This document shows, piece by piece, positions 1 through 24,678 of a DNA stretch of 27,703 nucleotides. The translations under genes were made by a program, and so were the position numbers. Position 1 is the first letter of the stretch, and each line of letters starts with the position of its first letter. The notes below the pieces were generated by a model. That model had not been told where the DNA came from and searched no databases. It was given only the letters and a program-made list of their open reading frames with translations. Source of the DNA: Nanobdellati archaeon (GTDB lineage: Archaea > Nanobdellota > Nanobdellia > Woesearchaeales > JAADFO01); contig JAADFO010000053.1 in NCBI GenBank assembly GCA_013152815.1, forward strand, positions 1-27,703. The letters run 5' to 3'.

Positions 1-1205
1 ACATAGAACGCAAGCATCGGAAGGAAAGTAATCCACCACACCCCTTTTTTCCAGGCATAGATGGACTTTCCTGAGAAAGGACGCAGAGGAAGCATCTGGA
101 TGAAGCCTATGCTGATGGCCAGGAGCATGATCATCTGGACGAGGACAGAGGGTGCGAGGAAGTTCCAGACGAAGAAGACAAGGAATGCAAGAAACGTCAT
201 GAGATTGATGTAGAAATTGACTTTTCCTTCAGTCTTCTTGTCCTTCTCATCCTCAGAGATCACATAGCCCGCGAGGGAGAAGGTGTTGCCGAGCCAGCCG
301 GACAGGATCGTTATCAGTCCGCCCCACCACCAGAACACATACTCAGTATGATGGCCATGCACCCTGTCGAAGACGAGCCGGGTGAGGTTTCTCAGGGCGT
401 AGATGACCATGTTGGCCAGCACGTTGACCAGCACGAACTCAAGGACCGACTCGTCGCTGAGAAAGGTATATGAGATGGCGATGGCAAACACTAAAGCAGC
501 CATGAAGATGGCCAGCCATTCCCGCCATTTGATGCGGATGCCCTTGAGATGGGTACCTCTAAAATGGGCCTTCAGCTCTTTCTTTTTTATCCGCTTCATG
601 ACCTTTGCCGAGACGAACAGCCGCAGGATCTTATTGGAGAAGTGGAAGAGGAATTTCCAGAGCCAGAGCAGGAAGAAGCTGATGCCGGTGGCGACGACAG
701 GAACATACTTGACCGGGATGAAGGATGCCAACGGAGACTTTTCAGCTGATGTCCTGGCTGCATTGTAGTAACCTGCCTTGTCCGAGAAGATGATGGCGAC
801 CTTTCTTCCCTTTTCATAGACAAAATCAACGACCGCTGTCGTGAGCTCATGGTGCTCGACACGCAGATCAGGGTTGTCCAGAAGCTCTTTGCTGATGCTG
901 TTCTGCTTCGGTCCTCCGATAAGGACAAGGATTGTAGATGCGTTGGGATCCCATGCAAAGGATGATTCTGGGACAGGCTCCATCCGTGCCACCTGGGGCT
1001 GCGACTCCCGAAGATAGGCGAAGGCCAGCCGCTCTGCAGCTGTCGTATAGGTTCCCTGGACGATCTGGATCTCGCCCGACGAGGATTCCAGGAAGGCATG
1101 CACCTCTTCCTCGATGCCAGAGAAATCATCAACCAGGGCGCCCTGGACCATAAGAGACTGAAGAAGGAAGAGGAAAGCCAAGAGGTGGAAGAGTTTGACC
1201 ATCAT
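1..1205 (-). CDS. Membrane protein, truncated at the window edge (C-terminus lies beyond position 1). Signal peptide, ~200-aa extracytoplasmic region, polytopic C-terminal TM domain. Function unknown.
   Basis: Own reverse-strand translation runs uninterrupted from the ATG (complement of 1203-1205; MMVKLFHLLAFLFLLQSLMVQG...) to position 1. It is absent from the ORF track, presumably because edge-truncated ORFs are excluded; the clear +strand ORF at the 3' end of the window is also unlisted. It contains several long hydrophobic helices. Track ORFs 403-768(+), 596-1132(-) and 938-1153(+) are other-frame artefacts of GC-rich DNA. Confidence 0.55.
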   Translation of the reverse strand, partial: MMVKLFHLLAFLFLLQSLMVQGALVDDFSGIEEEVHAFLESSSGEIQIVQGTYTTAAERLAFAYLRESQPQVARMEPVPESSFAWDPNASTILVLIGGPKQNSISKELLDNPDLRVEHHELTTAVVDFVYEKGRKVAIIFSDKAGYYNAARTSAEKSPLASFIPVKYVPVVATGISFFLLWLWKFLFHFSNKILRLFVSAKVMKRIKKKELKAHFRGTHLKGIRIKWREWLAIFMAALVFAIAISYTFLSDESVLEFVLVNVLANMVIYALRNLTRLVFDRVHGHHTEYVFWWWGGLITILSGWLGNTFSLAGYVISEDEKDKKTEGKVNFYINLMTFLAFLVFFVWNFLAPSVLVQMIMLLAISIGFIQMLPLRPFSGKSIYAWKKGVWWITFLPMLAFY

Positions 1206-1635
1206 GTATCGAACAGAGGGCAAGACTCCCTATTAATTAATTTTTTGGATAGGATAACAATCAGACGACAAAGGACAAAAAGTCTTCAGGAGGATGATCC
1301 AACAGACAACGGGCTGCTCTCCAGATCTCCGACCTTCAAGATGTGCAGAACCAATCTTCAATGCATTTACAGCAGCAGGTTTCTTTGAGCATCTCAGAAT
1401 CAGGTCGAATACGTCGTTTCAACCGATACGGACGGCAGCGATGGCCGGATCTGAACGAGCAATCGCTCTTCGCGACAAGAAGAAGAAAGCAGAAGAGAGG
1501 ATGAAGTGAAATTCTGATATTTTTCGGAATCCTTGCGGGAAATCTTTTTATTTCCATATGGAAAGGATAAGAGTAAGCACTCTCAAGTAAGAAATTATTT
1601 TAAAGAAGAATCCATTCCTTAAAGGGGGGATCACA

Positions 1636-2790
1636 ATGGGACAAATCAACATCATCGAGTCTGGGCTGTATACACATCGGAGCTACAATTTTCCCAGACA
1701 ACAATATTTCAATCTTTTCAATGCGAGAGCAGCAATAAAAAGAACAGCCTCATCCGATCTAGAGAAGAAGATCATCTCATCTTTTTATTATCAAGGACAA
1801 ATCGACAAGACACGTCCAGTTCAGACAGGCACATTCAAGTTAAGGTCAGAAGAAAGCAGACAATATTCCCTGGACATCACCGATTATATCATCGAGATGC
1901 TCTCTGATTCCGCTCTCCGGGATGAAATCAATGAACATCTTGGCAGATCAGGTCGTGAACCTGAAGAATTGAAACCAAGCCGGAAAGATATGGTGATCAC
2001 CAGCGGAAGAATAAGCGATATTCATGTCAGGGAAGTAAGAGATGTCAAGAACGAACTACGACCATTCTCCATTTCTGATCCGCATGGGGCCACACTGGAA
2101 CTCAAGGATCTTTTTTCTGGAAAAGAATATCATTCGGATCGAAGAGAATTCTCTCCAGGCATTTCAGATGTCCTTCAACAGCCAGATTCCCTTTTTGCAT
2201 TAGCATTTCAGAAAGCAGAATCCAACCAGACGGATCTAGAAGAATTCAAGAGAGCATATCATCCTGAGATACGTGATATGGTATATTCTCCCGAAGACAA
2301 ACATGTTGTCTTCTTCGAAAACATGAGAGCGAACATCGATCTTCAGATGAACATAGCAGCAGTAGCAAGTTTCAATACACAGGCATACAGGTTTTTTTCA
2401 GGTAAGACAAAAGTCAATCGCAAAGCAGACATAGTCATACCTGCAAGAATCAATGTTGATGCAATCCTTGATCCGGTCTATCACTATCCCTTCGCGATCA
2501 GGTTCAATTCTATCAAAAACATGGCGTTCTCAGATCATCTCCCGAGAAGGCGTGTTAAAGTCAACCAGGTATATGATAAGTCAAAGACAACAGAGGAAGG
2601 GAATAGTGTATTCTGGACCTGGTTTAGCTACTCGAGCATTTTCACGCAGGTAGGTAGTTACCTGATAGGTCATGCAAACAATCAACCGTTTTTGGGATCG
2701 GTGCTCGGGGGGCTTGAAGTATCTGGAATCATCGGACTCATCGCCACAGTGTATCATCTGAAAAATAAATACGTCCAACAGCCGTGGTGA
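1636..2790 (+). CDS. Hypothetical protein, 384 aa, with C-terminal hydrophobic/glycine-zipper TM segment(s) (FLGSVLGGLEVSGIIGLIATVYHL). First gene of a three-gene operon.
   Basis: Long ORF in an AT-richer block. A G-rich SD-like element (aaaggggggatcacaATG) and a TATA-like aaattattttaaag lie ~35 nt upstream. No recognisable catalytic motifs. Confidence 0.7.
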   Translation: MGQINIIESGLYTHRSYNFPRQQYFNLFNARAAIKRTASSDLEKKIISSFYYQGQIDKTRPVQTGTFKLRSEESRQYSLDITDYIIEMLSDSALRDEINEHLGRSGREPEELKPSRKDMVITSGRISDIHVREVRDVKNELRPFSISDPHGATLELKDLFSGKEYHSDRREFSPGISDVLQQPDSLFALAFQKAESNQTDLEEFKRAYHPEIRDMVYSPEDKHVVFFENMRANIDLQMNIAAVASFNTQAYRFFSGKTKVNRKADIVIPARINVDAILDPVYHYPFAIRFNSIKNMAFSDHLPRRRVKVNQVYDKSKTTEEGNSVFWTWFSYSSIFTQVGSYLIGHANNQPFLGSVLGGLEVSGIIGLIATVYHLKNKYVQQPW

Positions 2791-2799
2791 AACAATAAG

Positions 2800-3588
2800 A
2801 TGGCAGACGACCTCATGGCGAAGAAGAATCTCGAGAGGATCCTGAACAACACGTCTATCGGTAAGATTCGCCAGATCGAATCCTTCTTTAATTTTAGTCT
2901 CGACGATCAAAGCTACACGGCAGAAGAAAAGCTCGCGTTCATCAAGAGCTACACGATTGTCAAGAAGAACGCTGCTGCCCATTCTGCCAGCAAAGACCTC
3001 ATCCATGAACAGAAACAGGCCGATCTTGAAGTGGAAGACTATAAACACGAGAAATCCATGGAACTTGAAGCGGCAAGGTTCAAGGCGCTCGACTACACAC
3101 TCACCAAATTCTTGGGGATGCTCGCTGAGAATAACCAGAGTCAACTCAAACAGATCGAAAGCAAGTTCAACGAGATAAGCGAACAAGCAAAAGGGATCAA
3201 GCTGCTGCCTGAACATGCGAGCACCATCCCTTCTGAACATGATGATGCTTCAGAATATGTTGCGTTGATGCCCACCTATTCAAATTGTTGGAGAAAACAT
3301 GACGATGGTCATGCCGGACCAGAACACGCCATCCTGACCATGACCGCCAAAGATGGGCTTCATATGCGCTGTCTCGTTGCATACGCTGCTCAAAATCCGG
3401 GAGACAAAGGATTTGCACGATTGAAATACCAGATATTCCACGAAGAACTTTTGCGCCAGGGAGATTGCCCCAGGCCATACAGCCGCAGCATCTCCCGCAG
3501 GATTCCAGGCATCAGTTGGCTTCTTACAAAACCCGGCATCTGCCCCTTAGCTGATGGCAAAGAACACGTCATAGCATACAACACGTAA
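2800..3588 (+). CDS. Hypothetical protein, 262 aa. The N-terminal half looks coiled-coil-like; the C-terminal half is Cys/His-rich (NCWRKHDDGH, HMRC, GDCP, GICP).
   Basis: ORF begins 10 nt after the stop of the previous gene and ends 1 nt before the next ATG (operon arrangement). No recognisable family motifs. Confidence 0.65.
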   Translation: MADDLMAKKNLERILNNTSIGKIRQIESFFNFSLDDQSYTAEEKLAFIKSYTIVKKNAAAHSASKDLIHEQKQADLEVEDYKHEKSMELEAARFKALDYTLTKFLGMLAENNQSQLKQIESKFNEISEQAKGIKLLPEHASTIPSEHDDASEYVALMPTYSNCWRKHDDGHAGPEHAILTMTAKDGLHMRCLVAYAAQNPGDKGFARLKYQIFHEELLRQGDCPRPYSRSISRRIPGISWLLTKPGICPLADGKEHVIAYNT

Positions 3589-3589
3589 A

Positions 3590-4528
3590 ATGAACCTCAT
3601 CCCAGACAGTAGCTTTATGGATCCCGAAGATGTCAAGCTAGAGGGACTCATCAACGCCGCTCAGGATGAGATAGCAGGTGCAAAAGACCCGAAGATCTAT
3701 GTCGTCAACCTCATCGAAGACATCTTCCATCCGAACATGAAGAAACTCATCGCACAGATTGATGCCTACGGAGACCCCGGGAAGTCGTTAATACCTTTCT
3801 TCCAGGACCACATGAATGCTGCAAGCTTTCTCAACAGCATCGGTTATACCTCTTTCAGACCAGACGAAGTCGCAAGGCTCTTTAATGTAGTCACAAGGAT
3901 GATCATTGAAGATTCCATTCGCTCCAATAATGTTGAGCTTGATAACCTGATCGTTCCTGACATGCTTTCCCGAGAACTGACAACCAAGACAAACCAGAAG
4001 TTACAGACCATTGAACAAGATATCTACTTCAATCCCGAAGAACTCACACAGTATGGATATCTGAGGGATAAGGCTTTTGATTTCATGGACCGCCAGTCCG
4101 GAGAGTTAGATTATGATCTCCTCTTTGACCAAGGCATGAAAGATCTTAAAGTCGGACAATCACATAAAGAACACATCTACCTAAAATATTGGTTGACGCA
4201 GGCGTTCCTGCACCATGAAGGGATCATACACCAGGACACCATCGAAAGCATGGCTCAACTGAAAAGAACCTACAAAAAACAAGCAGAAGAGTATCTTGAG
4301 CAGCTTAGAGAAGAAGGCGGTCCGGTCTCTGCAACCGACAAGAGAGACGGGGCTCTCATGATCAAGAATATGCATCCCACGTATAATGCGGGCAACTATG
4401 CAGGAAAGTTCATGCAATTCAGAGAACGTAAGATCCTGGCCGCGTTAAAGGAGTTAGGCATCTGCAAGGGAGAAGGCGCTTTCCCGAACATGCAAGATAA
4501 GTCCAGAGATACGCAAAAATTCTGCTGA
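3590..4528 (+). CDS. Hypothetical protein, 312 aa, soluble, no recognisable domain. Third gene of the operon.
   Basis: The ATG overlaps the preceding stop (taaaATG). Long ORF with the same low-GC composition as its operon neighbours. Confidence 0.65.
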   Translation: MNLIPDSSFMDPEDVKLEGLINAAQDEIAGAKDPKIYVVNLIEDIFHPNMKKLIAQIDAYGDPGKSLIPFFQDHMNAASFLNSIGYTSFRPDEVARLFNVVTRMIIEDSIRSNNVELDNLIVPDMLSRELTTKTNQKLQTIEQDIYFNPEELTQYGYLRDKAFDFMDRQSGELDYDLLFDQGMKDLKVGQSHKEHIYLKYWLTQAFLHHEGIIHQDTIESMAQLKRTYKKQAEEYLEQLREEGGPVSATDKRDGALMIKNMHPTYNAGNYAGKFMQFRERKILAALKELGICKGEGAFPNMQDKSRDTQKFC

Positions 4529-4727
4529 TCATTCTCGATCGACAGACGGATGGATTGCTTCATTTTATGGCCATAATCATGCACACAACCATTATAACCT
4601 ATACTTTGGAGAGGTTGTTTTTATGGGTTTCGTCCGAGCCACACTAAACCATTCAGGGACGAGAAAGTGCTTGAAGTGCGACTAGGAGCCATCCCAATTA
4701 CGACTCTTACAGATCCTAACACAAAAT

Positions 4728-5096
4728 TCATTTCTTCTTATAGCCGAATAATTTATTGTATTTATCATGATCCAGATACTCAAGAATAAATGCAATTATT
4801 TCTACTTCGTCACCAATAAGCGTATAGAGAAGCCTCCAATAGCCGACAAGTTCAACTCTAAAAAGTTTATCTGTTCCGTAACGATTGGCAACTTTGTTAT
4901 TTATGTATTTCCTGGGTATCAAATCACCAAAATAAGGATTTGCTTTTATGTTTCGAATGGCTGTATTAATTGAAGTGAGTAGTTGTTCATATGTTGGCTT
5001 CTTATTTATCTTTTTTCCTTTGGCAACGCATTCTTGTAACGCCTTAAACTCTTCATATGCTTCATCATCAAATTTCACAACTACTTGCTTATCCAT
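4728..5096 (-). CDS. RelE/ParE-family type II toxin.
   Basis: C-terminal ...KLFRVELVGYWRLLYTLIGDEVEIIAFILEYLDHDKYNK matches the RelE/ParE pattern [FY]R..LG.YR[LI][LI]Y.[VLI]...V.I..I..R...Y, as in archaeal aRelE. The N-terminus begins VVKFDDEAYEEFKAL. Its start lies 1 nt after the stop of the upstream small gene. Very AT-rich. Confidence 0.65.
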   Translation of the reverse strand: MDKQVVVKFDDEAYEEFKALQECVAKGKKINKKPTYEQLLTSINTAIRNIKANPYFGDLIPRKYINNKVANRYGTDKLFRVELVGYWRLLYTLIGDEVEIIAFILEYLDHDKYNKLFGYKKK

Positions 5097-5097
5097 C

Positions 5098-5382
5098 TTA
5101 CATTACAGTGACCGCTTTCTTAAGCTTAATTTTTAGCTTATTACTTATGTCCTCTTTGTAGATCCAGATTATTCCTGCCTCTAGCATTGCAATCTTTCCG
5201 CTCTCTTCCAAATAAGATAAGATCAGATTCAATGTCGGTCTCATTATTTTCTTGGCAAGTCGTCTATCTATTTCATTTTTGGATAATGGCTCTTTTGCAG
5301 CTTTCATTATAGTCTCCACATTAAGTATAGTATCAAGCCGCGGGTAATGTAAAACTCGTTTCAATGCTTGCATCATAGTCAC
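5098..5382 (-). CDS. Putative antitoxin or transcriptional regulator with a winged-helix-like region (LSKNEIDRRLAKKIMRPTLNLILSYLEESGKIAMLEAGIIWI), cognate partner of the RelE/ParE toxin.
   Basis: 94-aa ORF immediately upstream of, and co-directional with, the toxin (1-nt gap). A BRE/TATA-like aaaaggtttatatat sits ~45 nt upstream on the minus strand (about 5408-5422). Confidence 0.5.
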   Translation of the reverse strand: MTMMQALKRVLHYPRLDTILNVETIMKAAKEPLSKNEIDRRLAKKIMRPTLNLILSYLEESGKIAMLEAGIIWIYKEDISNKLKIKLKKAVTVM

Positions 5383-5768
5383 CTATAAACTTATATCATA
5401 GCATAAGTACATATCATATATAAACCTTTTCTTTCTAGAGGAGACAGTGACCGTAAAGGTATAACCCAGAAGAGCTTTTTAGGACAATGAAACCGACTAT
5501 CTTGAATGAGCCCGGAGATGCGCAGACACCCCATAATATGCGCAAATACTTCATAATATGTATGTGTGCTTGAGGGAAACCATAGGTTGACCGAAACATA
5601 CTTCGGGCTTCAGGATCGAAAAAGTACAGTGCACGGCAATCAAAGATTGCTGGCATCCCAAAAATCTAGAGATTTTTGAGGACAACCGCTAGGTTGCGAA
5701 CAGATCTGAGCCCAGAGATACACAAAAATTTCTGATTCTTGGATATCCCTGTCTCATTTCCAAGAAAA

Positions 5769-5884
5769 TGAGCCCAGAGAGATTTGAACTCCCGACCCCA
5801 CGGTTACTTTCGGACAGCGTCTGAAAGGAGCAGACGCCAGTCTGCTAAGAGCCGTGTGCTCTAGCCAGGCTGAGCTATGGGCCC
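5769..5884 (-). tRNA. tRNA-Lys(CTT) with a ~41-nt intron at the canonical 37/38 position; no encoded CCA.
   Basis: Reverse complement folds by hand into a cloverleaf: acceptor GGGCCCA/TGGGCTC plus discriminator A; D-arm GCTC-AGCCTGGCTA-GAGC; anticodon stem CACGG/CCGTG with loop CTCTTA[intron]A, giving anticodon CTT; variable GGGTC; T-arm GGGAG-TTCAAAT-CTCTC. Confidence 0.85.
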
Positions 5885-15685: not shown

Positions 15686-16300
15686 CTATGAAATGTGAAG
15701 ATTGGCGCTGTTCATATACAGGCGATGTGAGGCACGTTCTTTCTTTGTCATCTCTTTAAGCGAGGTATCCCGGCCCATGGCTTTTTCAACAAACTGATCG
15801 ATATGTTCTTTTGGAGGTATCTCAGAAAAATAGACCAGATTACCTGCTCCAAGGGGAACATCCCAGAGACGGTGCCTGAAGATGGGCGTCGTCAGACCAT
15901 CCCTATTCTCACCCCACTTTGAGATGACCAATCCATCTTCCTGAACATAGCCTGCATGGCTGAGCAGAAGGTCGTGATAGTGCTGCTCAGAATCATAGTG
16001 TTTCACCTGTATGAAATACCAGACAACACCCCCCTTCCCCGGTTTAACATCCTCAGAGACGGTCAGACTTTCTACGAGCGCGTCCACGCCTTTAATGAGA
16101 TCAGGACCCTCTTTCCCCAGAACATGGTTGAAACAATTATGATAACGTAACGCTTCAGGATGATCTGCAGCAGGCTCAATGCCCATCTTGGCCATCCGTT
16201 CTTCGACAGTTGACCGTTCCCCCCGATTGTATCCCAGAGTGATCTGTAGACGACGGATGTATTGATCCAGATTCTTGAAAAAGGATTGTGTGTTATCCAT
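15686..16300 (-). CDS. Hypothetical protein, 204 aa.
   Basis: Long ORF of backbone-like composition, convergent with the preceding cluster. No motif recognised. Confidence 0.5.
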   Translation of the reverse strand: MDNTQSFFKNLDQYIRRLQITLGYNRGERSTVEERMAKMGIEPAADHPEALRYHNCFNHVLGKEGPDLIKGVDALVESLTVSEDVKPGKGGVVWYFIQVKHYDSEQHYHDLLLSHAGYVQEDGLVISKWGENRDGLTTPIFRHRLWDVPLGAGNLVYFSEIPPKEHIDQFVEKAMGRDTSLKEMTKKERASHRLYMNSANLHIS

Positions 16301-16516
16301 GATTGCCTGCTGTTGGTCGCTCTCAATAAGGGAGAGATGAGATTCGGAAACAAACCATCACAAAACCATCTCACATATTCAGAACACAACCTCTCTTTAA
16401 AAAAGTTACTATCAGAGAGTGATATTTTTCCTTGTTTTCAGGATTGCGACTTTGGCAAAGAAACTAGCCCCTCCTGGAATAGCGGAAGATAGCCTCATTC
16501 TTTGGAGCTCGAGAAG

Positions 16517-16909
16517 TTACCTTAGTCTTTTTTTGATATGTTCAACCAGTGGTTCAAACAACGCCTGTGATATGGCGAGGGCATTTTCAGCTTCTTCTGG
16601 TCTGGGTTTATATCCGTAGTAGTTAATGTTGTGTCTCAGTCTCCTCATGTTATCGAGGATGCTTAGCGGTCGGGTAGTGTTCACTTTTAAGGTAAGTAGC
16701 TCCTTGATGGGCGTTATATGGTCTTCTGATTCGATGCCTTTCTCTGTCAGCAACGCATCTCCAAGCATCCTGAAGGATTCGTAGATATTGCGGATGATGG
16801 TTGCAGAAGATTCTTCTGTGACTGGCAGGGAAAGGGTGAACTTCATATCCCGTTCAGCAGCCTGAAGAATGCTCAGTGCATTTTTCCGGTCTGGTCTTTT
16901 ATACCTCAT
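16517..16909 (-). CDS. HEPN-domain protein, putative toxin of a HEPN/MNT pair.
   Basis: 130-aa all-alpha-looking protein with a C-terminal ...NMRRLRHNINYYGY segment resembling the HEPN R-x(3-6)-H motif. Its ATG overlaps the stop of the upstream MNT gene by 4 nt (ATGA). AT-rich. Confidence 0.55.
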   Translation of the reverse strand: MRYKRPDRKNALSILQAAERDMKFTLSLPVTEESSATIIRNIYESFRMLGDALLTEKGIESEDHITPIKELLTLKVNTTRPLSILDNMRRLRHNINYYGYKPRPEEAENALAISQALFEPLVEHIKKRLR

Positions 16910-17493
16910 GGTCTGACCTCCAAGAACCCCTCAAGCACTATGCCGTTTGCAATATTTGAGAATAAATTTATGTCTATCTTGTTGCGTGTGAATATGTGTA
17001 GATTAACAGGAACATCTTTTCTATATCCGAACCTGGGCATCCTGCCCATCTCGATTATTCTCACATCTTTATCGCTATTCACTTCAACTGCTATGTCAAC
17101 ATCACTTTTTTCTGTATCATCCCCTTTTCGGTAGCTTCCGAAAAGCACTATCGCGTTTGCGATGCCCACGATCTCCTGTATTTGGTTTTTTAGACTCTTG
17201 TTGTAAGCTTCAAACACCATCGATAGGTTGAACGCAATTTTTTTTGTGTAATTGTAAGGATGACTCCGGTTGCACGCAATCCGCCAAGCTTTGCCATACA
17301 CTTTTTTTATTAAGAATTCTTCTTCAACCATCCTTTCTACAATCTTCTTTGCAGTCGTTTTTGATATCTTGAGATACTCAGCAAGATCATTTAATCCCGC
17401 TTCCGTCTCGGGAAAAGAGAAAAACCAGGAGAGCACCTTATTATAGGCTTCATTTAGTTCAACCAGTCCAACATTTTCCAATCTCTTCGGCAT
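16906..17493 (-). CDS. Minimal nucleotidyltransferase (MNT) with an N-terminal winged-helix DNA-binding extension; putative antitoxin of the HEPN/MNT pair.
   Basis: NTase motif LFGSYRKGDDTEKSDVDIAVEV (GS...DxD). N-terminal region LAEYLKISKTTAKKIVERMVEEEFLIKK is wHTH-like. Lies upstream of the HEPN gene with a 4-nt overlap. Confidence 0.65.
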   Translation of the reverse strand: MPKRLENVGLVELNEAYNKVLSWFFSFPETEAGLNDLAEYLKISKTTAKKIVERMVEEEFLIKKVYGKAWRIACNRSHPYNYTKKIAFNLSMVFEAYNKSLKNQIQEIVGIANAIVLFGSYRKGDDTEKSDVDIAVEVNSDKDVRIIEMGRMPRFGYRKDVPVNLHIFTRNKIDINLFSNIANGIVLEGFLEVRP

Positions 17494-17499
17494 ATGAGC

Positions 17500-17537
17500 T
17501 GGTAACGAGAAGAACTATATAAACTTTTTGGTTACCA
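17500..17537 (-). promoter_or_regulatory. Promoter/operator of the MNT-HEPN operon: BRE/TATA-like aaaaagtttatatag flanked by a 7-bp inverted repeat tggtaac...gttacca.
   Basis: Seen directly: arms at 17500-17506 and 17531-17537 bracket the TATA-like element, ~25 nt upstream of the MNT ATG (minus strand). Confidence 0.4.
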
Positions 17538-17647
17538 ATCGGTAATTATGAGAACCAGATGAGTTTTTTTAGAACCGGTTTATGAGAGTTAAAAGAAATA
17601 ATGCAAACATAGAGCTCCCGACAGCATCATCACTAACAGGTGAACTC

Positions 17648-17666
17648 TAGCCCCGCCCGGATTCGA
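17648..17666. repeat. Direct repeat A: 19-nt copy of the 3' end of tRNA-Gln (tagccccgcccggattcga); attL/attR-like.
   Basis: Identical to 23570-23588 (the genuine tRNA 3' end plus 2 nt of flank); a third partial copy lies at 23477-23494. Confidence 0.7.
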
Positions 17667-17716
17667 GACTATGAAATTCTCCTCAGGAAAGGTTTATAAA
17701 GAGTATTTGTCTAAAA

Positions 17717-20700
17717 CTAAAGGGGATCATTGCCAGCCAATGAACCATTTGAAATTGGCCTGGGCTCAGGCGGAAGAGAATATGGATCGTTCTCATAACC
17801 ATGATTAAAGGGGGAAATGTTTAAGACTTTACCATCCACCACCAAAGTACTGCTCCCTCCCGGATCAAAGCCCATTGCATGAACCATGCCGTGTTTTAGG
17901 AGTATCCTTGCCATGTCCCTATGTGTGGCGCCGACTGACTCTCTAATACGCCCATTAACCACTAAGACTGAAAGATCTCCTTTTTTATCCAAGCCAACGG
18001 CAATCTTCGGACCTCTCATATCAACATAGTCGACACGCGCAGCTTGAGTTTTGATGGAGTTGCTTGATTTCCATCCTTCCCTTTCCATTTCAATCCTGAT
18101 TTTCTCATTTTTCAATAACATTGGTCCCGCTTCGATGCCATGCATTGTCTTATTGAACTCAGTCATAGTAATTGAGACCTCTGACCCGATATCCCAGCCT
18201 GTTGGAGCCTTGTTTCTAGGGAAAGAAAGGGTCAATCCGACCGGAATGATGCTCAGTCGCTCCCCCTGTTTCGTTTTGATGATTTCCTTGATAATGTTTC
18301 CTGCCAAACGATAGATCACCCTCCCATTGCCTTCGATGGTGTCTTCAGTGTGCATGAGATCATAAAAGCAGGGATCATCGCCTGGGTTCTTTCGGTTGTA
18401 GTGTTTTTTGGTTAACACACAAGCATGACGATTATGTGAGATAATCATCCCCTTGGAGCAATTGACTCGTCTGATTTCCAGTTTACCGGTAGAGTGGAAT
18501 AATATCGCCGGCTTATTAAAGAGGGGTGGAGAAATTATTCTATTGTCAGAGATCACCAGTCCCAGAGGACTACCCACATATGCTTTTGACAAGCCAAGTT
18601 TCCCAACAAGTTCTGCATTGAGAATGTACCCGCCATTCCACACAATTCGTGCTTTGCCCTTGTATCGACGCTCAAAAAGCTTTATGAAATGTTGAGCCGC
18701 GTGAGGTAGGTGGTTGCTAAACGAAGCATTAAACGTCCATTTCTTCTTAGCGTTGCTTAAGTTGGCTTTCGCAAGCACACCCGACCAAGGAAGGCCGTCA
18801 ACGTAGACTCCGCGCACATAGGAATATTCTACATCATCCTTTCCTTTTTTTCTTTGTTTATCGATTTTCTTCAATACGGTCATGACAGGAGAACCCTTTT
18901 CCTCAGCATCCTTTCGAAGAATGTTGAGTATCGATTTCTCCCCATGTTCTTTGCATAATCGTTTATACAGCTTACTATGAAAAGCATTCGAGAACTCTGA
19001 TGCTGTCTGAATGGGAGTAGGGTATGCTATTGTCGGCCGTAATCCCGGGGGAACCCATTCGACAAATCCCGAATCAAGCGGAATTCCCATTACCTTTGAA
19101 GTGAGTATATCCTTCACTTTTCCGATATGAAATGTTTCCAGATCCACAATATCGGTCATCATCGCTGAGTGTTCTCCAAACGTCATGATGTATCCATGAT
19201 GCTTTTTCACATAGCTGAGCGTATTCAGCGCATCCTTCCCTAACTGTCGGAAGTCTATCCCAACAGACATTTGCTCACTCGTGACAATTTTGCAGACATC
19301 ATGTTTATAAAGAAGCCTCAGTTCATGGTTTTCTCCGAGCAACAGATACTCACGCAATTCTTCAGCAGTGAAATAATTACCGAGGGGTTTTCGTTGTTTA
19401 ATGATGAAAATAGGTGCCAGTTTCTTCCTTAGCAACTCTTTTTCAGTTATGGGTTGCTCAAGGCTCAAACCAAGTCGCTCTCTTACGGTGTGTACGATGA
19501 AAATCTCCAGTTCATGTCTGATATATTTGCCTGGAAAGTAGGCAATCGGCACATTGCTGCGAAGTTTCTTAATTAATCGAGAACTATGATCAATGTGCAG
19601 ATTAGAACAATCAGCTAGTTGACAAAAAGCATTCCGTATATCGGTCAGGTGGTGGGGACGTCTTTCGTATCTGATTTTCAATGCGGAGGGATTAATAATT
19701 GAATTAAAGAGAAGGTTAATGACACCAGTTATTTCCTGATGAGTAAATTTTCTATATGGGAAGAGATCTTTATTTCTATGCCTATACGAGAAAGAATGGT
19801 CTATCCTCACAGAGATAGAGCCCTTTTTATAATGGAAGATATTATCAACGCAGTTATAGAATGCATGTCTTTTTTCTTTTGAGATATACTGGGTCTGGTT
19901 ATAGCTGTCAATAAGATATTTCGCAAATTGGAATGCTCTCCCTTTTATTTCCTGTTCCTCGACGCGGAAATAACTTGGATCAATAAGAGATTTAAGATAG
20001 ATCATAAAAGCCATTTTCCCATATCCCGGGAGATATTGGCGGTTTTTTTTATGAAGGATATCCTTCAGCGCAGGATAAGTTCTCGTCAATCTCCGTTCAT
20101 ACTTAACCATCTCTGAAATCGTTGCTTTCATCCCCTGCCGCCGGGGAAGAAGCTGAAGATATAGGCTATGGAGTATAGACTCCATGTTCTTCCGCAGGTT
20201 CTCCATGTTGTATCTTCTTTCCGCTACCTGTCTGTTGTGGTCCGCATCAACCAGATACTCATGAGGATGAAGTATTCTGCTGGCTATCTCATGGATGATC
20301 GAATGGGTGATCGAGTTGGAAAATTCAATTACGCGCAACCGCTGGCCGCTGGATAGATGCTCCCCGATAACTTCCGCATACACCTGGACAGGATAATATC
20401 TTCTCGTGAAGATGGGAGAGCGACTTGCAGCCGATTCAATGATCGGAAGACCCCTCCCTTCGGTTTCACTCGGAAGAAGAATCAAGTTTGCAATATTGTA
20501 GATATCCGAGATATCTATCGGATTAGAGAATCTTCTTTTGAATTCAGGTTTATCAGTCTCAGAAAAGGTGAAGGCCAGGAAGATTCTGTCTTTTAGACCT
20601 GAGGGGATCGTTTTAAGTGACGCGGAGAAATCAGAGAGGAGCTTCTTGAAATATGAAGCATGACCTTCTGCAATAGGCCCGGTAATCAATAAAGTGAGGG

Positions 20701-21868
20701 TAAGCCTCTTGTTGCTCTTAAAAAACAGAGTGAACTCCGGATGATGAAACAATTTATTGATCAACGTAAAGTTAACTTCGATCTTTTTTCGCTCGATGAT
20801 TCTGGTGGGTTGGAGAAAGACAATATTATTTTCTATAAAGTCAATTGTGCCTTTCTTAAAACCTGTTATGAACGGCGCGGGAGAGGTATCAAATTTATCG
20901 CCCTGCAACTGATCAATCGGCGTTACAGAAAGTTTTCTTTTATATCGGCTTAATATTCTTGAAATCTGGATGAATGTCTCTATTTTTCTTCTTTCGGTAT
21001 TATTCTTAAACTCATCCAAGTCGATTGCTGTTCCAATTTCGGCTATATTTGCCGGATTGTGGCCAAAGCGTTCTATTAAACATTTCGACTGAGCAGTGTT
21101 TATATTCACAGACATCCATGTCGCGGATTCCCAGGGAAAGATTACGTTGATAACTGAAAAGAATTCACCAATATCTGAATTCGTGAAGAAAAAATCTCTC
21201 GGGCCGGGTTTTAAGCCTTTTGTCTTGATGTCTATCTTTTTATTCCCGCCTTCCCAATAAAAATCGTGATTATTGCTGAGAACAGGAATATTCAGGTATT
21301 CCGAGAGAAGAACACAAGCTAAGGCCAATGACACATTTCCAGGATTTGAATTTACGTTGAGAAGATAGAGGAGTTGAATGCCATTCTTTTCTATATAACT
21401 GCCAAGCTTTTCGCAGATGACAAGAGTTTCCTTCCAGAACCTTTTTATTAGGTTGTTGTATATAGTGCCGCCTCGAGAAATTTTTTTATGGAAAAAATCA
21501 TCGTACAGGTCCCATTTTTTGAAACCGTTTATTTCGTCAATTTGGAATTTTTTTATGTCGGGCTGGATCAAGTGGCTTGACTCAGGATAGAATTCTCCAG
21601 CGATATAGTGAATTTTTTGCGTGTTCAGGATAGATCTGAAAATTTTAGCATATTTTGCGCATTCCATGGTGACTCCATCAATGGCATAATAGAAAGTAAC
21701 GAAGGCAACTCCCTTGGCTATGTGCTTCTTAAAATTTTCAAACGTCCCTTCAAATTGGATCGGCGGAGCGGTTCTTCTATCGCGTAATCTATCAATGAAC
21801 AGGCCTAGATCGAACCATGTAGCGATCTTCTCTGACTTTAATCTGTTCATCATTGATTTTGTTTCCAT
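17717..21868 (-). CDS. Giant (1383 aa) multidomain glycan-modifying protein. N-terminal/central GT-B (GT4-like) glycosyltransferase region, ~500 aa of unassigned sequence, and a C-terminal phosphodiester-glycosidase (NAGPA 'uncovering-enzyme'-like, DUF2233) domain.
   Basis: GT4 E-x7-E-type block PSETEGRGLPIIESAASRSPIF. C-terminal IAVGLDKKGDLSVLVVNGRIRESVGATHRDMARILLKHGMVHAMGFDPGGSSTLVV matches the phosphodiester-glycosidase pattern TAIG..DG.L.LVVVDGR...G.TL.ELA.LM..LG...ALNLDGGGSST. Confidence 0.7.
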   Translation of the reverse strand: METKSMMNRLKSEKIATWFDLGLFIDRLRDRRTAPPIQFEGTFENFKKHIAKGVAFVTFYYAIDGVTMECAKYAKIFRSILNTQKIHYIAGEFYPESSHLIQPDIKKFQIDEINGFKKWDLYDDFFHKKISRGGTIYNNLIKRFWKETLVICEKLGSYIEKNGIQLLYLLNVNSNPGNVSLALACVLLSEYLNIPVLSNNHDFYWEGGNKKIDIKTKGLKPGPRDFFFTNSDIGEFFSVINVIFPWESATWMSVNINTAQSKCLIERFGHNPANIAEIGTAIDLDEFKNNTERRKIETFIQISRILSRYKRKLSVTPIDQLQGDKFDTSPAPFITGFKKGTIDFIENNIVFLQPTRIIERKKIEVNFTLINKLFHHPEFTLFFKSNKRLTLTLLITGPIAEGHASYFKKLLSDFSASLKTIPSGLKDRIFLAFTFSETDKPEFKRRFSNPIDISDIYNIANLILLPSETEGRGLPIIESAASRSPIFTRRYYPVQVYAEVIGEHLSSGQRLRVIEFSNSITHSIIHEIASRILHPHEYLVDADHNRQVAERRYNMENLRKNMESILHSLYLQLLPRRQGMKATISEMVKYERRLTRTYPALKDILHKKNRQYLPGYGKMAFMIYLKSLIDPSYFRVEEQEIKGRAFQFAKYLIDSYNQTQYISKEKRHAFYNCVDNIFHYKKGSISVRIDHSFSYRHRNKDLFPYRKFTHQEITGVINLLFNSIINPSALKIRYERRPHHLTDIRNAFCQLADCSNLHIDHSSRLIKKLRSNVPIAYFPGKYIRHELEIFIVHTVRERLGLSLEQPITEKELLRKKLAPIFIIKQRKPLGNYFTAEELREYLLLGENHELRLLYKHDVCKIVTSEQMSVGIDFRQLGKDALNTLSYVKKHHGYIMTFGEHSAMMTDIVDLETFHIGKVKDILTSKVMGIPLDSGFVEWVPPGLRPTIAYPTPIQTASEFSNAFHSKLYKRLCKEHGEKSILNILRKDAEEKGSPVMTVLKKIDKQRKKGKDDVEYSYVRGVYVDGLPWSGVLAKANLSNAKKKWTFNASFSNHLPHAAQHFIKLFERRYKGKARIVWNGGYILNAELVGKLGLSKAYVGSPLGLVISDNRIISPPLFNKPAILFHSTGKLEIRRVNCSKGMIISHNRHACVLTKKHYNRKNPGDDPCFYDLMHTEDTIEGNGRVIYRLAGNIIKEIIKTKQGERLSIIPVGLTLSFPRNKAPTGWDIGSEVSITMTEFNKTMHGIEAGPMLLKNEKIRIEMEREGWKSSNSIKTQAARVDYVDMRGPKIAVGLDKKGDLSVLVVNGRIRESVGATHRDMARILLKHGMVHAMGFDPGGSSTLVVDGKVLNISPFNHGYENDPYSLPPEPRPISNGSLAGNDPL

Positions 21869-22074
21869 TACATTTCAACATCCTTTTGGTTTAAGCAGTG
21901 ACAATCAGAAATTCCGCCGCTCGGAGCTACCCTCGACCTAAACGCCCAAAAACAATGTTTCTGGCGTCCAAAAAATCAAGGATTTTTTTAAGAGGCGAGG
22001 GTATGACGCTCCTCGCATCAATAGACGGAATTTCTGGTCCCTTTGGGGTCCCAGCAACCGACGGTTGCTGTGGA

Positions 22075-22109
22075 ATGCAAAGGTTTCACGGTCATGCAAA
22101 GGTTTCACG
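22075..22109. repeat. Perfect 16-nt direct repeat atgcaaaggtttcacg x2 (period 19) in the upstream region of the giant gene; adjacent 8-bp-stem hairpin cagcaacc-gac-ggttgctg at 22052-22070.
   Basis: Seen directly in the intergenic region between the GT4 stop (22145) and the giant-gene start (21868). Confidence 0.6.
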
Positions 22110-22144
22110 TACTGAAGCGCGGGGTATGAAACCCATTGCATGAA

Positions 22145-23305
22145 TCATTTTTTTGCTCTTTTGAAATCTTTTAAAGCCTTTTTATAGGCAGCTTCATAGT
22201 CATCGACCATCCTTTCGACTGTGAATTTCTCCTGGACGTGCCTTCTACATTCCATGCGGTCAATCTTATCGATGTTTCTCAGTGCAGCAATCAACCCTTC
22301 AATATTAGGTTTTCCTTGCTTATTCCATGGTTTAACTATGAATCCTGTCTTGCCTTCATCAACTATTTCAGAAACAGACCCCCTATTGAAAGCAATAACC
22401 GGTGTCCCGCAAGCCATTGCCTCTATCATTACCAGTCCGAAAGGTTCTTCCCATTGAATAGGAAACAAGAGAGCCTTGGCGTTTCTTGCATATTGGAAAA
22501 CTAGTTTCCTTGGTAAAAAGCCCCTTTTCGTGATCTTTCCTTTGATGAATGGCTTTATTTTTTTATCCCAATACTCTAATTGGTCACTGTGAGGTTCCCC
22601 TAACAAAATCAGTTTATTGTCGGTCTTTCTGGCGACCTGGATTGCTTCAGAGACGCCCTTCTCTTCCCGGAACCTGCCAATGAACAGAAGATATTCACCG
22701 GTTTTTGTAGAAAACTTTATTTTCTTTAGATTGCTTAAACCATGATAAATGGTTGCAGCATAGTTTAGATTCGGAAGTGGCTTTCTTTGAGAGTCACTGA
22801 TGGAAACGTAGTATTGGGTGTTAGCATAAAACTTTAAGATTTGCTGGTTGTTGTAAGAATCTAACGGAGAATGCAGGGTAGAGATCGTAGGGATCGAGAC
22901 AAGCGGAGCATAATAAGCTGTCCTGATATCAAAATGACTATGGATAATATCAAACTGCCCCTTCGCGGCCATTTGGTAGGCTTTAGAGATTAAAAGATGT
23001 TCATAGGGTATATGATTCTTAACACCGGTGTTTCTATCACTGAGACTATCCTTCTTTGTAACGCTGACTAGACGCGCAGAAGTCTTTGAGTTACCTGAAG
23101 CGAATAGAGTAACATCGTGGCCCCGTTTTATTAATTCTTCAGAGATATCGTATACGACAGATTCGACAGCTCCGGCCCGCCCTTGCTTCAGAAATTTTTT
23201 AATTGGAGGAATCCTAATAAAATTTGAAGCAAGCATTGCAATTCTCAGTTTTTTCATGTTATCAGGCGATTTCAATTGTTTGCATACATCATAAATTGTT
23301 TGCAT
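22145..23305 (-). CDS. GT4-family (GT-B fold) glycosyltransferase.
   Basis: Canonical C-terminal block EEPFGLVMIEAMACGTPVIAFNRGSVSEIVDEGKTGF. N-terminal ...KKLRIAMLASNF... suggests the true start may be the internal MKKLRIAML, 16 codons downstream. Confidence 0.9.
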   Translation of the reverse strand: MQTIYDVCKQLKSPDNMKKLRIAMLASNFIRIPPIKKFLKQGRAGAVESVVYDISEELIKRGHDVTLFASGNSKTSARLVSVTKKDSLSDRNTGVKNHIPYEHLLISKAYQMAAKGQFDIIHSHFDIRTAYYAPLVSIPTISTLHSPLDSYNNQQILKFYANTQYYVSISDSQRKPLPNLNYAATIYHGLSNLKKIKFSTKTGEYLLFIGRFREEKGVSEAIQVARKTDNKLILLGEPHSDQLEYWDKKIKPFIKGKITKRGFLPRKLVFQYARNAKALLFPIQWEEPFGLVMIEAMACGTPVIAFNRGSVSEIVDEGKTGFIVKPWNKQGKPNIEGLIAALRNIDKIDRMECRRHVQEKFTVERMVDDYEAAYKKALKDFKRAKK

Positions 23306-23313
23306 ACATCATA
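23275..23313. repeat. Tandem duplication of 19 nt (attgtttgcatacatcata x2, period 20) overlapping the annotated ATG of the GT4 gene.
   Basis: Seen directly. Supports the internal start for the GT4 gene, with the repeat lying in its 5' leader or promoter. Confidence 0.6.
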
Positions 23314-23348
23314 TTTAAGGTTATAGTATGTACCTTGAGGATTATAAC

Positions 23349-23474
23349 TCAGATCATACAATCAGTTCTGACTGAATCTCTTCTGTCACGAAGTCCATCG
23401 ATGAATAACCCTGGATCAAACCACGTTGAGATCTGCTCTGATCTCAATTCCTGCATCATCTGTTTTACAGTCAT
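23349..23474 (-). pseudogene. 41-codon fragment paralogous to the 5' end (N-terminus) of the giant gene at 17717-21868.
   Basis: Own translation MTVKQMMQELRSEQISTWFDPGLFIDGLRDRRDSVRTDCMI* versus giant N-terminus METKSMMNRLKSEKIATWFDLGLFIDRLRDRR..., about 70% identical. DNA is also ~70% identical (23398-23470 vs 21790-21862). It ends 2 nt from att-like repeat B. Confidence 0.6.
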
Positions 23475-23476
23475 TC

Positions 23477-23494
23477 TATAGCCCCGCCCGGATT
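23477..23494. repeat. Direct repeat B: 18-nt partial copy of the tRNA-Gln 3' end plus flank (tatagccccgcccggatt).
   Basis: Identical to 23568-23585; 93 bp from the genuine tRNA 3' end. Confidence 0.7.
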
Positions 23495-23569
23495 GCTTTG
23501 CTGCCAAAAACGCCAAGCGTTTTTGAGCATGATCGAACGCGTGCTGGAAGAATACTTTCGAAGAAAGTA

Positions 23570-23687
23570 TAGCCCCGCCCGGATTCGAACCGAGGTCCCG
23601 ACCTGTCTCTCAACAGAGAGGCGCTCAGAAACGCCTGCGTTTCTGTTGTCCAGAGGGTCGGATGATTGGCCACTACACTACGGGGCT
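23570..23687 (-). tRNA. tRNA-Gln(CTG) with a ~45-nt structured intron at position 37/38; A1-U72 acceptor pair; no encoded CCA.
   Basis: Reverse complement AGCCCCG-TA-GTGT-AGTGGCCAA-TCAT-C-CGACC-CTCTGG[intron]A-GGTCG-GGAC-CTCGG-TTCGAAT-CCGGG-CGGGGCT-A. The 5' half closely resembles archaeal tRNA-Gln as I recall it (AGCCC...GTGTAGTGGCC.ATCATCC). The intron contains two hairpins (gaaacgc/gcgtttc and ctctc/gagag). Confidence 0.8.
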
Positions 23688-23820
23688 GTTGGTGTCAGTT
23701 TTGGGGCTTGACGAGCCCTGAATTGCCGAACGATGCCGTTCGGGCATATTCATCGCGAGGAAACCCCATTCGCATCCTGTGGGCGAAAAGGTGACTTGCT
23801 ATGCAAGGCACCGAGCACAG

Positions 23821-23855: not shown

Positions 23856-23862
23856 CGTGTTT

Positions 23863-24663: not shown

Positions 24664-24678
24664 TTTTCGTACGTTTCA

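What the first reader, a model, noticed from the sequence alone, without database searches (positions are those of the whole stretch)
1636..4528. Three-gene operon of unrecognisable proteins, candidate novel defence or abortive-infection system
Three ORFs of 384, 262 and 312 aa are packed with 9-nt and 1-nt spacers behind one promoter, which indicates translational coupling. They sit inside the AT-rich island next to a toxin-antitoxin module and a tRNA integration site. None shows a motif I can place in a known family. Gene 1 ends in a C-terminal hydrophobic/glycine-zipper-like segment (GSVLGGLEVSGIIGLIATVYHL), gene 2 is coiled-coil plus Cys/His-rich, and gene 3 is a large soluble protein. A large soluble domain with a C-terminal membrane-spanning tail is recurrent in effectors of phage-defence systems. 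The defence role is inference from context only.
Basis: inference. Interest (0 to 1): 0.65.

Follow-up and report, generated by a model that had tools for sequence, protein, structure and literature searches.

The report
Orphan gene plus novel conserved pair
Two of the three genes are the core of an undescribed, horizontally mobile gene module shared by DPANN archaea and bacteria, the first gene is a true orphan, and a role in virus defence is plausible but unproven.

Summary
The three ORFs, their 9-nt and 1-nt spacers, gene 1's C-terminal membrane segment and the lack of any known family are all confirmed. The trio is not one conserved unit.

- Gene 2 (family A) has about 30 relatives. It has a variable coiled-coil N-terminus and a very conserved ~110-aa Cys/His domain (62% mean identity).
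- Gene 3 is a divergent member of family B, which lies directly downstream of A in 14 of 15 loci.
- In 12 of the 13 loci where the sequence continues past B, a TPR or FwdC-like beta-helix protein follows. The window is the only exception.
- Gene 1 has no homologue among 1.84 billion representative proteins, and its GC3 differs from genes 2 and 3.

The module occurs in DPANN archaea and in bacteria, always at different genomic positions. One copy lies in a clear defence island. Others lie beside transposases, a HEPN gene or toxin-antitoxin genes, and some sit between housekeeping genes.

In the window it lies on a ~4.5-kb low-GC island ending at an intron-containing tRNA with att-like repeats. 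One repeat overlaps the end of gene 3, so the third gene may have been lost there.

No match in Pfam, NCBIfam, PHROGs, PADLOC, PDB, phages or plasmids. Function unknown; defence is the leading guess (~0.35).

The parts
1592..1605 (+). AT-rich TATA-like element (AAATTATTTTAAAG) 31-44 nt upstream of the gene 1 ATG. Candidate archaeal promoter for gene 1.
   Evidence: Read from the sequence. Inference only; no transcript data.
1624..1629 (+). GGGGGG run 7-12 nt upstream of the gene 1 ATG, resembling a ribosome-binding site.
   Evidence: Read from the sequence.
1636..2790 (+). Gene 1: a 384-aa orphan protein with no Cys. It has a large soluble N-terminal part and a C-terminal membrane anchor.
   Evidence: ORF. 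Only a self-hit among 5.8 billion clusters and among 1.84 billion representatives by exhaustive phmmer. No Pfam, PADLOC, NCBIfam, PHROGs, PDB or plasmid hit. GC3 is 0.43. The single-sequence AlphaFold2 model is unusable, with pLDDT 31.
2686..2754 (+). Predicted transmembrane segment of gene 1 (residues 351-373, FLGSVLGGLEVSGIIGLIATVYH). A weaker aromatic-rich hydrophobic stretch lies at about residues 326-346.
   Evidence: Kyte-Doolittle window mean of 1.82. The low-confidence model places helices at 335-347 and 351-379.
2760..2772 (+). GAAAAATAAATAC, a TATA-like element 35 nt upstream of the gene 2 ATG, inside the last codons of gene 1. Possible separate promoter for genes 2 and 3.
   Evidence: Sequence. 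Relatives carry TTTAAATA 34-42 nt upstream of A's ATG in L007, L011, L012, L019, L020 and L021. Inference only.
2800..3588 (+). Gene 2: a 262-aa member of the new family A, with an N-terminal coiled-coil or helical hairpin and a C-terminal Cys/His domain.
   Evidence: 22 homologues at 34-65% identity, plus relatives in loci L006-L021. Alignments A1 and A5. AlphaFold2 gives helices 2-132 at pLDDT 71-94.
3262..3585 (+). Conserved C-terminal Cys/His domain of gene 2 (residues ~155-262). Invariant residues include C163, R165, H167, C191, F205-A206-R207, H214, C223-P224, I235-P236 and P249; C248 is present in 31 of 32. Putative metal-binding or catalytic core.
3590..4528 (+). Gene 3: 312 aa (303 aa if it starts at Met10, nt 3617). 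A divergent member of the new family B, the obligate downstream partner of family A.
   Evidence: hhalign against the family B alignment gives 94.6% probability and E 7e-8 over residues 40-290, with the shared motif HPTYNAGNY. Local hmmsearch gives E 1.2e-5. BLASTP to the L013 family B protein gives 8e-5. The syntenic position matches.
4498..4528 (+). att-like repeat overlapping the last codons and the stop of gene 3. It is a degenerate copy of the tRNA 3' end plus the sequence flanking it.
   Evidence: The 22-mer at 4500-4521 matches 5709-5730 with 2 mismatches, where 0 are expected by chance. Gene 3 extends about 15 aa beyond the end of its closest relative.
5707..5730 (+). Exact duplicate of the tRNA's 3'-terminal 12 nt (TGAGCCCAGAGA) plus a shared flank. 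Another copy with one mismatch lies at 5507-5518. These look like integration scars marking the right end of the island.
5769..5884 (-). Intron-containing tRNA. The anticodon reads as CUU (Lys) from the sequence. Its 3' end faces the island.
   Evidence: Rfam RF00005, 49.1 bits, 43-nt insertion. Sequence. ARAGORN finds nothing.

Best explanation
**What it is.** Genes 2 and 3 are the conserved, tightly coupled core pair (A-B) of a previously undescribed, horizontally mobile gene module. The usual order of that module is A, B, then a repeat protein (TPR or FwdC-like GXGXG beta-helix). It occurs sporadically in DPANN archaea and in bacteria.

**The window's copy.** It sits on a ~4.5-kb foreign island (about 1250-5768) between a host membrane-protein gene and an intron-containing tRNA. 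It differs from the relatives in two ways:
- The third gene is absent. It was probably lost by recombination at an att-like site that now overlaps the end of gene 3.
- An unrelated orphan gene for a tail-anchored membrane protein (gene 1, of different composition) lies 9 nt upstream.

**Proposed mechanism (inferred, not shown).**
- A forms a coiled-coil oligomer through its variable N-terminus. Its invariant Cys/His domain acts as a zinc-binding or catalytic core.
- B binds A as an obligate partner.
- The exchangeable repeat protein acts as a sensor or scaffold.
- Together they act as an accessory conflict or defence module.
- In the window, gene 1 is either a recruited membrane effector or unrelated cargo.

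**Confidence by step.**
- About 0.8 that genes 2 and 3 form a conserved mobile pair and that gene 1 is not part of the conserved unit.
- About 0.35 that the module's function is anti-virus or anti-mobile-element defence.
- About 0.15 that gene 1 is its effector.

The overall confidence given (0.35) is for the full statement including the defence function.
For: **Shown**
- Family A has 22 database relatives plus relatives in fetched loci.
- Family B lies immediately downstream of A in 14 of 15 distinct short-form loci. Spacing runs from a 4-8-nt overlap to a 31-nt gap, or a larger overlap under alternative start choices.
- Gene 3 belongs to family B.
- A third repeat protein is present in 12 of the 13 loci where the sequence continues past B.
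- The Cys/His domain is extremely conserved.
- The module spans both domains of life:
  - Archaeal: Woesearchaeota and Nanoarchaeia MAGs, and a locus with a Cdc6/ORC neighbour.
  - Bacterial: loci with RF-1, LytB, SpoIIE, fatty-acid synthesis genes, bacterial-type PheT and PEP-CTERM neighbours.
- Contexts are non-syntenic and often mobile or conflict-related:
  - L001: a DUF499/DUF3780/DUF1156-methyltransferase/PLD-helicase system on one side, Lit peptidase U49 and AbiJ on the other.
  - L011: IS66 and IS630-type transposases.
  - L017: a HEPN gene.
  - L005: a DUF4258/MqsA pair and an HTH gene.
- In the window, GC3 is 0.43-0.56 for the three genes against 0.65-0.74 for host genes, and there are att-like repeats of the tRNA end.
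- Gene 1 is an orphan and is unrelated to the third-gene families.
Against: - No component has a recognisable enzymatic, nuclease, NTPase or pore-forming domain.
- No family matches any PADLOC model.
- Only one distinct locus is in an unambiguous defence island. Several copies (L004, L014) sit between housekeeping genes with no defence neighbours.
- None is found on viral contigs, phage records or plasmids.
- TPR, beta-helix and coiled-coil proteins are equally typical of structural or scaffolding complexes.
- The fold of the Cys/His domain could not be predicted (pLDDT 40-85). Metal binding and catalysis are therefore conjecture.
- Loss of the third gene at the att-like site is inferred only from the extended C-terminus of gene 3.
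Confidence: 0.35

Rival explanations
1. The A-B-repeat-protein module is a non-defence accessory complex. It could be a structural, scaffolding or regulatory assembly of coiled-coil, TPR and beta-helix proteins that travels on mobile islands. The window carries a partial copy.
For: The third proteins are FwdC-type GXGXG beta-helices (E 1e-16 to PDB). One member gives a weak bactofilin hit and others carry TPR arrays. The long-form A genes sit among WD40, TPR, double-zinc-ribbon and NfeD-protease genes. No effector-type domain is present anywhere. Several loci have only housekeeping neighbours.
Against: The distribution is patchy, rare and cross-domain, with non-syntenic insertion sites. The association with transposases, HEPN and toxin-antitoxin genes and with one defence island fits conflict systems better than a cellular structure.
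Confidence: 0.3
2. The window's locus is a mosaic remnant with no integrated function. Genes 2 and 3 would be a truncated module left after serial integrations at the tRNA. Gene 1 would be an unrelated, fast-evolving or recently arisen gene that merely abuts them.
For: Three distinct GC3 classes occur within 4.5 kb: gene 1 at 0.43, genes 2 and 3 at 0.55-0.56, and the toxin-antitoxin-like pair at 0.28-0.39. Four att-like copies are present. The third gene is missing only in this locus. Gene 3 is very divergent and has an extended C-terminus that overlaps a repeat. A promoter-like element for gene 2 lies inside gene 1. No integrase is present.
Against: All three ORFs are intact. Gene 2 keeps every invariant residue of its family. 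The 9-nt and 1-nt spacings are what co-expression would produce.
Confidence: 0.25
3. The genes form a toxin-antitoxin-like addiction cassette. Gene 1 would be a membrane toxin, and genes 2 and 3 would neutralise it and stabilise the island.
For: Gene 1 has a tail-anchored membrane segment. The genes are tightly packed on a mobile island.
Against: Genes 2 and 3 recur in 13 other loci without any gene 1 equivalent. The proteins are far larger than typical antitoxins. No DNA-binding antitoxin domain or toxin family was detected.
Confidence: 0.07
4. The genes encode a housekeeping or core metabolic function of the host archaeon.
For: None found.
Against: There is no homology to any pathway family. 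Codon composition is foreign. Only 2 of 185,579 species-representative genomes carry family A. The positions are non-syntenic.
Confidence: 0.02

Closest known systems
Multi-gene anti-phage defence cassettes with an exchangeable sensor or effector component, as catalogued in PADLOC and DefenseFinder (for example TPR-bearing Avs/STAND systems)
   Same: A small, tightly packed accessory operon. Patchy cross-domain distribution. Insertion in variable sites, including one defence island. A conserved core plus a modular third gene that often carries TPR repeats.
   Different: No protein of the module matches any PADLOC model. No NTPase, nuclease, protease, TIR, SIR2 or other known effector or sensor domain is present. 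Defence activity is untested.
FwdC / glutamate-synthase C-terminal GXGXG right-handed beta-helix proteins
   Same: The usual third gene of the module has this repeat fold.
   Different: The window has no such gene. In the module the beta-helix is fused to a module-specific N-terminal region of about 70-130 aa, which the TPR-type variants share. It is not part of a formylmethanofuran dehydrogenase or a glutamate synthase.
Tail-anchored or C-terminal-transmembrane effectors of abortive-infection systems (for example the membrane effectors of CBASS and retron systems). This comparison rests on general knowledge.
   Same: Gene 1 has a large soluble part followed by a C-terminal membrane segment and lies on a foreign island.
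   Different: There is no sequence or structural similarity to any of them. Gene 1 has no homologue at all. No link to a sensor has been shown.
tRNA-targeted integrated genomic islands
   Same: Low-GC DNA abuts the 3' end of a tRNA, with repeated copies of the tRNA's terminal 12 nt.
   Different: No integrase gene is present, and no repeat copy marks the far (left) end.

Membership tests
Known or candidate defence systems (PADLOC-DB v2.0) | At least one protein matches a system HMM | tested here: not met
   No hit for genes 1-3. No hit for family A, B or C members from other loci apart from generic TPR noise.
Any curated protein family (Pfam-A, NCBIfam, PHROGs) | A match at or above the curated cut-off | tested here: not met
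   Searches give only sub-threshold coiled-coil noise. No family recurs among 23 family A members or 9 family B members at E <= 1.
New A-B-repeat-protein module (defined here) | Family A protein with a C-terminal Cys/His domain carrying the invariant C163/R165/H167/C191/FAR/H214/C223-P/I-P/C248-P pattern | tested here: met
   Gene 2 carries every invariant residue.
New A-B-repeat-protein module (defined here) | Family B gene immediately downstream of A and tightly coupled to it | tested here: met
   Gene 3 against family B gives hhalign 94.6% probability and E 7e-8. It starts 1 nt after gene 2's stop. However, identity is only about 16-20%.
New A-B-repeat-protein module (defined here) | Third gene downstream of B that encodes a TPR or GXGXG beta-helix protein with the shared N-terminal region | tested here: not met
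   Nothing follows gene 3 except an att-like repeat and a convergent gene pair. Gene 1 is unrelated to family C (hhalign probability 0.1) and to the L007 paralogues.
Type II toxin-antitoxin module (the neighbouring genes at 4728-5382, minus strand) | Homology of one partner to a toxin family and of the other to an antitoxin or DNA-binding family | tested here: inconclusive
   The 122-aa protein has no Pfam, PADLOC or PDB hit. The 94-aa protein has only a sub-threshold winged-helix hit (TBPIP, E 3.7e-4). The layout fits: two small genes 1 nt apart.
tRNA-integrated genomic island | Adjacent tRNA, direct repeat of the tRNA's 3' end, deviant composition, and an integrase | tested here: inconclusive
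   The tRNA is present. Repeats lie at 5707, 5507 and 4498. GC3 is deviant. No integrase ORF and no repeat at the left end were found.

The most novel reading that the evidence does not exclude
The A-B-repeat-protein module is a new immune system shared between DPANN archaea and bacteria. Its ultra-conserved Cys/His domain would be a new effector or sensor fold. In this archaeon the module would have swapped its repeat-protein component for a novel tail-anchored membrane effector (gene 1).
Probability: 0.2. Interest if true: 0.75.

Novelty: categorically new. Interest (0 to 1): 0.45.

Why it matters
[quoted passage not shown] The accessory genes of these tiny-genome symbionts are mostly uncharacterised.

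This work turns three anonymous ORFs into a defined and testable object:
- a two-gene core with an exchangeable third gene;
- a ~110-aa domain that stays at about 62% identity across archaea and bacteria while the rest of the protein diverges;
- complete bacterial copies (L004, L014, L021) that could be cloned and challenged with phages.

If the module is a defence system, it adds a family with no recognisable effector chemistry. If it is not, the Cys/His domain is still a new conserved domain that moves between the two domains of life.

"Categorically new" here means that the module cannot be placed in any known kind of system. It does not mean that a new mechanism has been demonstrated.

Tried and rejected
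**Gene 1**
- Word-indexed search, exhaustive phmmer, PDB phmmer and plasmid tblastn found only the protein itself.
- hhalign against family C and against the L007 paralogues found nothing.
- The single-sequence AlphaFold2 model is unusable, with pLDDT 31.

**Fold of gene 2**
- AlphaFold2 with 23 sequences modelled only the coiled-coil confidently.
- Foldseek against PDB gave a best E of 1.7.
- The afdb50 library was unavailable.
- PDB profile searches with the full-length alignment and with the domain-only alignment found nothing.

**Motif ideas for the Cys/His domain, considered by eye and rejected**
- Deaminase HAE...PCxxC: the Glu is not conserved.
- ADP-ribosyltransferase R-S-E: the spacing is too short.
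- HNH beta-beta-alpha-Me finger: the His in the hairpin is not conserved.

**Family B**
- The N-terminus gave weak EF-hand-like PDB hits (E 0.0075-0.3). I rejected this lead because there are no canonical calcium-binding loops, and gene 3 does not align over that part.

**Viral or plasmid origin**
- Nothing in IMG/VR for A or C. Family B was too divergent to scan.
- Nothing in phage or plasmid records.

**Other dead ends**
- The window's own contig is not indexed for gene-context look-up.
- Literature searches for GXGXG or bactofilin proteins in defence found nothing relevant.
- The sigma-70 promoter and intrinsic-terminator scan was at chance level and does not apply to archaea.
Full report
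**1. The observation**

The window is an entire 27,703-bp contig of an NCBI MAG labelled "DPANN group archaeon". Genes 1 and 2 are locus tags GXP63_05370 and GXP63_05375.

- The three ORFs are at the stated coordinates: 1636-2790 (384 aa), 2800-3588 (262 aa) and 3590-4528 (312 aa).
- The spacers are 9 nt and 1 nt. JGI starts gene 3 at Met10, which would make the second spacer 28 nt.
- Codon-position statistics are those of real genes.
- GC falls to 0.36-0.47 over about 1500-5500, against 0.50-0.58 in the flanks.
- Gene 1 has one strong hydrophobic segment at residues 351-373.
- Gene 2 has long, confident N-terminal helices and a Cys/His-bearing C-terminal part.
- No protein matches Pfam, PADLOC, NCBIfam or PHROGs at a meaningful level.

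**2. Gene 1 is an orphan**

- The word-indexed search of 5.8 billion protein clusters returns only the protein itself.
- An exhaustive phmmer pass over 1.84 billion representatives returns the same.
- PDB and plasmid searches are empty.
- It has no profile similarity to any third-gene family of the related loci or to any neighbour.
- A single-sequence AlphaFold2 model is unusable, with pLDDT 31.
- Its GC3 (0.43) differs from genes 2 and 3 (0.56 and 0.55) by roughly 3-4 standard errors, and from host genes (0.65-0.74).

**3. Genes 2 and 3 are a conserved pair**

Family A (gene 2):
- Gene 2 has 22 database relatives at 34-65% identity. None carries a name or a Pfam domain.
- More relatives turned up in fetched loci: two GTDB representative genomes, both DPANN (Woesearchaeota and Nanoarchaeia), and 11 metagenome loci.
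- Across 32 distinct sequences the N-terminal coiled-coil averages 22% identity, while the C-terminal ~110 aa average 62%.
- Invariant residues are C163, R165, H167, G173-P174, C191, F205-A206-R207, H214, C223-P224, P226, I235-P236, S239, P249 and A251. C248 is present in 31 of 32.

Families B and C, from clustering the neighbours:
- Family B (254-318 aa) lies directly downstream of A.
- Family C (450-585 aa) follows B.

Gene 3 is a divergent family B member:
- hhalign gives 94.6% probability and E 7e-8 over residues 40-290, including the family's HPTYNAGNY motif.
- Local hmmsearch gives E 1.2e-5 against a small database.

Final tally after adding loci L019-L021 and the partial B in L012:
- B follows A in 14 of 15 distinct short-form loci. 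The exception, L017, has a double-zinc-ribbon protein there instead.
- Spacing runs from a 4-8-nt overlap to a 31-nt gap, or a larger overlap under alternative start choices.
- In 12 of the 13 loci where the sequence continues past B, a repeat protein follows.
- The window is the only exception.

**4. The third component is modular**

- Most family C members are FwdC-type GXGXG beta-helices (PDB E 1e-16).
- The L001 and L019 members share only the N-terminal ~70 aa and then carry TPR repeats.
- L007 has two paralogous proteins, each with TPR repeats plus an unknown domain.
- A long form of A (340-417 aa, with an N-terminal helical-repeat extension) has no B. It is preceded by a conserved ~400-aa partner and sits among WD40, TPR and double-zinc-ribbon proteins and an NfeD-type protease.

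**5. Distribution and context**

The module is rare. Only 2 of 185,579 species-representative genomes carry family A.

| Locus | Likely host | Context |
|---|---|---|
| Window | Archaeal (DPANN) | Low-GC island at a tRNA |
| L006, L007 | Archaeal (DPANN MAGs) | Short contigs |
| L013 | Archaeal | Cdc6/ORC neighbour |
| L004 | Bacterial | Between housekeeping genes; RF-1, LytB, SpoIIE/STAS nearby |
| L005 | Bacterial | Fatty-acid synthesis genes; DUF4258/MqsA pair and an HTH gene |
| L014 | Bacterial | Between bacterial-type PheS/PheT and a phosphoribosyltransferase |
| L017 | Bacterial | HEPN gene upstream; PEP-CTERM and PrmC nearby |
| L011 | Not assigned | IS66 and IS630-type transposases |
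| L001 | Not assigned | Defence island |

- The positions are never syntenic.
- In L001 the module lies between a DUF499/DUF3780/DUF1156-methyltransferase/PLD-helicase system and Lit peptidase U49 and AbiJ genes.
- None of the families occurs on IMG/VR viral contigs or in phage or plasmid records.
- No PADLOC model matches A, B or C.

**6. The window's island**

- A minus-strand membrane-protein gene runs off the left end of the contig (about 1-1205).
- The island therefore spans about 1250-5768 and ends at the 3' end of an intron-containing tRNA (5769-5884, minus strand; Rfam 49 bits). The anticodon reads as CUU from the sequence.
- The tRNA's terminal 12 nt recur exactly at 5707-5718, with one mismatch at 5507-5518, and degenerately at 4498-4509.
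- The 22-mer at 5709-5730 recurs at 4500-4521 with 2 mismatches, where 0 are expected by chance.
- That last copy overlaps the final codons of gene 3. Gene 3 runs about 15 aa beyond the end of its closest relative.
- I infer serial integrations at the tRNA. One of them probably removed the third gene and placed the toxin-antitoxin-like pair (4728-5382) there.
- No integrase is present.
- A TATA-like element, GAAAAATAAATAC, lies at 2760-2772, 35 nt before gene 2's ATG. Relatives carry TTTAAATA at that distance. Genes 2 and 3 may therefore have their own promoter inside the 3' end of gene 1. "One promoter" is not established.

**7. Mechanism**

Nothing enzymatic is recognisable.
- The fold of the Cys/His domain could not be predicted (pLDDT 40-85).
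- It has no structural or profile match.

My best-supported reading is an accessory, horizontally mobile conflict module:
- A oligomerises through its coiled-coil and carries a zinc-binding or catalytic Cys/His core.
- B is its obligate partner.
- The third repeat protein acts as an exchangeable sensor or scaffold.

Confidence:
- About 0.8 for the evolutionary anatomy.
- About 0.35 for a defence function.
- About 0.15 for gene 1 being its effector.

Rivals:
- A non-defence scaffold complex (0.3).
- A functionless mosaic remnant in this particular locus (0.25, partly compatible with the best explanation).
- An addiction cassette (0.07).
- A housekeeping function (0.02).

**8. Comparison with known systems, and verdict**

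The module works like the small modular defence cassettes catalogued in PADLOC and DefenseFinder, but every membership test against a known family failed. Within the module defined here, the window meets two of the three defining features: A and B are present, and the third gene is absent.

The families and the architecture are undescribed in every library and paper searched. I therefore rate it as unclassifiable and new, not as a variant of a known kind. That is not a claim of a demonstrated new mechanism.

Interest is moderate (0.45). It is a concrete, testable candidate relevant to the poorly known defence repertoire of DPANN archaea (PMC12988326). However, the functional evidence is contextual and thin, and the window's copy is atypical and possibly incomplete.

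Noticed in passing
window 5769-5884 (minus strand): A tRNA with a 43-nt intron, anticodon CUU by reading. Rfam finds it at 49 bits, but ARAGORN finds no tRNA anywhere in the window.
   Followed up: partly
window 4498-4528, 5507-5518, 5707-5730: Several direct copies of the tRNA's 3'-terminal 12 nt. Two of them share a 22-nt flank. They bracket the two small convergent genes and overlap the stop of gene 3, which suggests serial integrations. No integrase is present.
   Followed up: partly
The 94-aa protein has only a sub-threshold winged-helix hit. Its GC3 (0.28-0.39) is the lowest in the window.
   Followed up: partly
window ~1-1205 (minus strand): A multi-pass membrane-protein gene runs off the left end of the contig, with a 409-codon open frame. 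The ORF tool does not list it for that reason. It forms the left border of the island.
   Followed up: no
window ~16000-25000, including 17717-21868 and 22145-23305 (minus strand): A second low-GC region (0.38-0.46). It carries a 1383-aa protein whose C-terminus resembles NAGPA-type phosphodiester glycosidase domains (PDB E about 1e-6), which suggests a surface protein. A 386-aa gene there has a GC3 similar to gene 1.
   Followed up: partly
L001 1-8426 and 13783-20298: A rich defence island surrounds one relative of the module. On one side is a DUF499/DUF3780/DUF1156-methyltransferase/PLD-SNF2 helicase system. On the other are a Lit-type peptidase U49 and AbiJ. Two small genes of unknown function lie just upstream of A, one of them with 2 transmembrane segments.
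   Followed up: partly
L020 893-1712: The family B gene is split into 137-aa and 124-aa ORFs at a poly-A run. This is either an assembly error or a frameshifted pseudogene.
   Followed up: no
L022/L023 1-7102; L015; L016; L017 6445-7728: Long-form family A genes sit in a cluster of WD40, TPR and double-zinc-ribbon proteins, with a conserved ~400-aa upstream partner and an NfeD-type protease. L017's family A protein is followed by a protein that shares the same double-zinc-ribbon tail (37% identity over 78 aa).
   Followed up: partly
neighbour set A4 (65 proteins from all loci and the window): The bulk PADLOC scan also reported PbeA (2 proteins, E 1.6e-31), mad2 (2 proteins) and MzaA (1 protein, E 3.7e-45).
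   Followed up: no
L011-L014 (all from metagenome Ga0209541): Four distinct copies of the module, on different contigs and probably in different hosts, come from one metagenome. This suggests local enrichment or exchange in that community.
   Followed up: no
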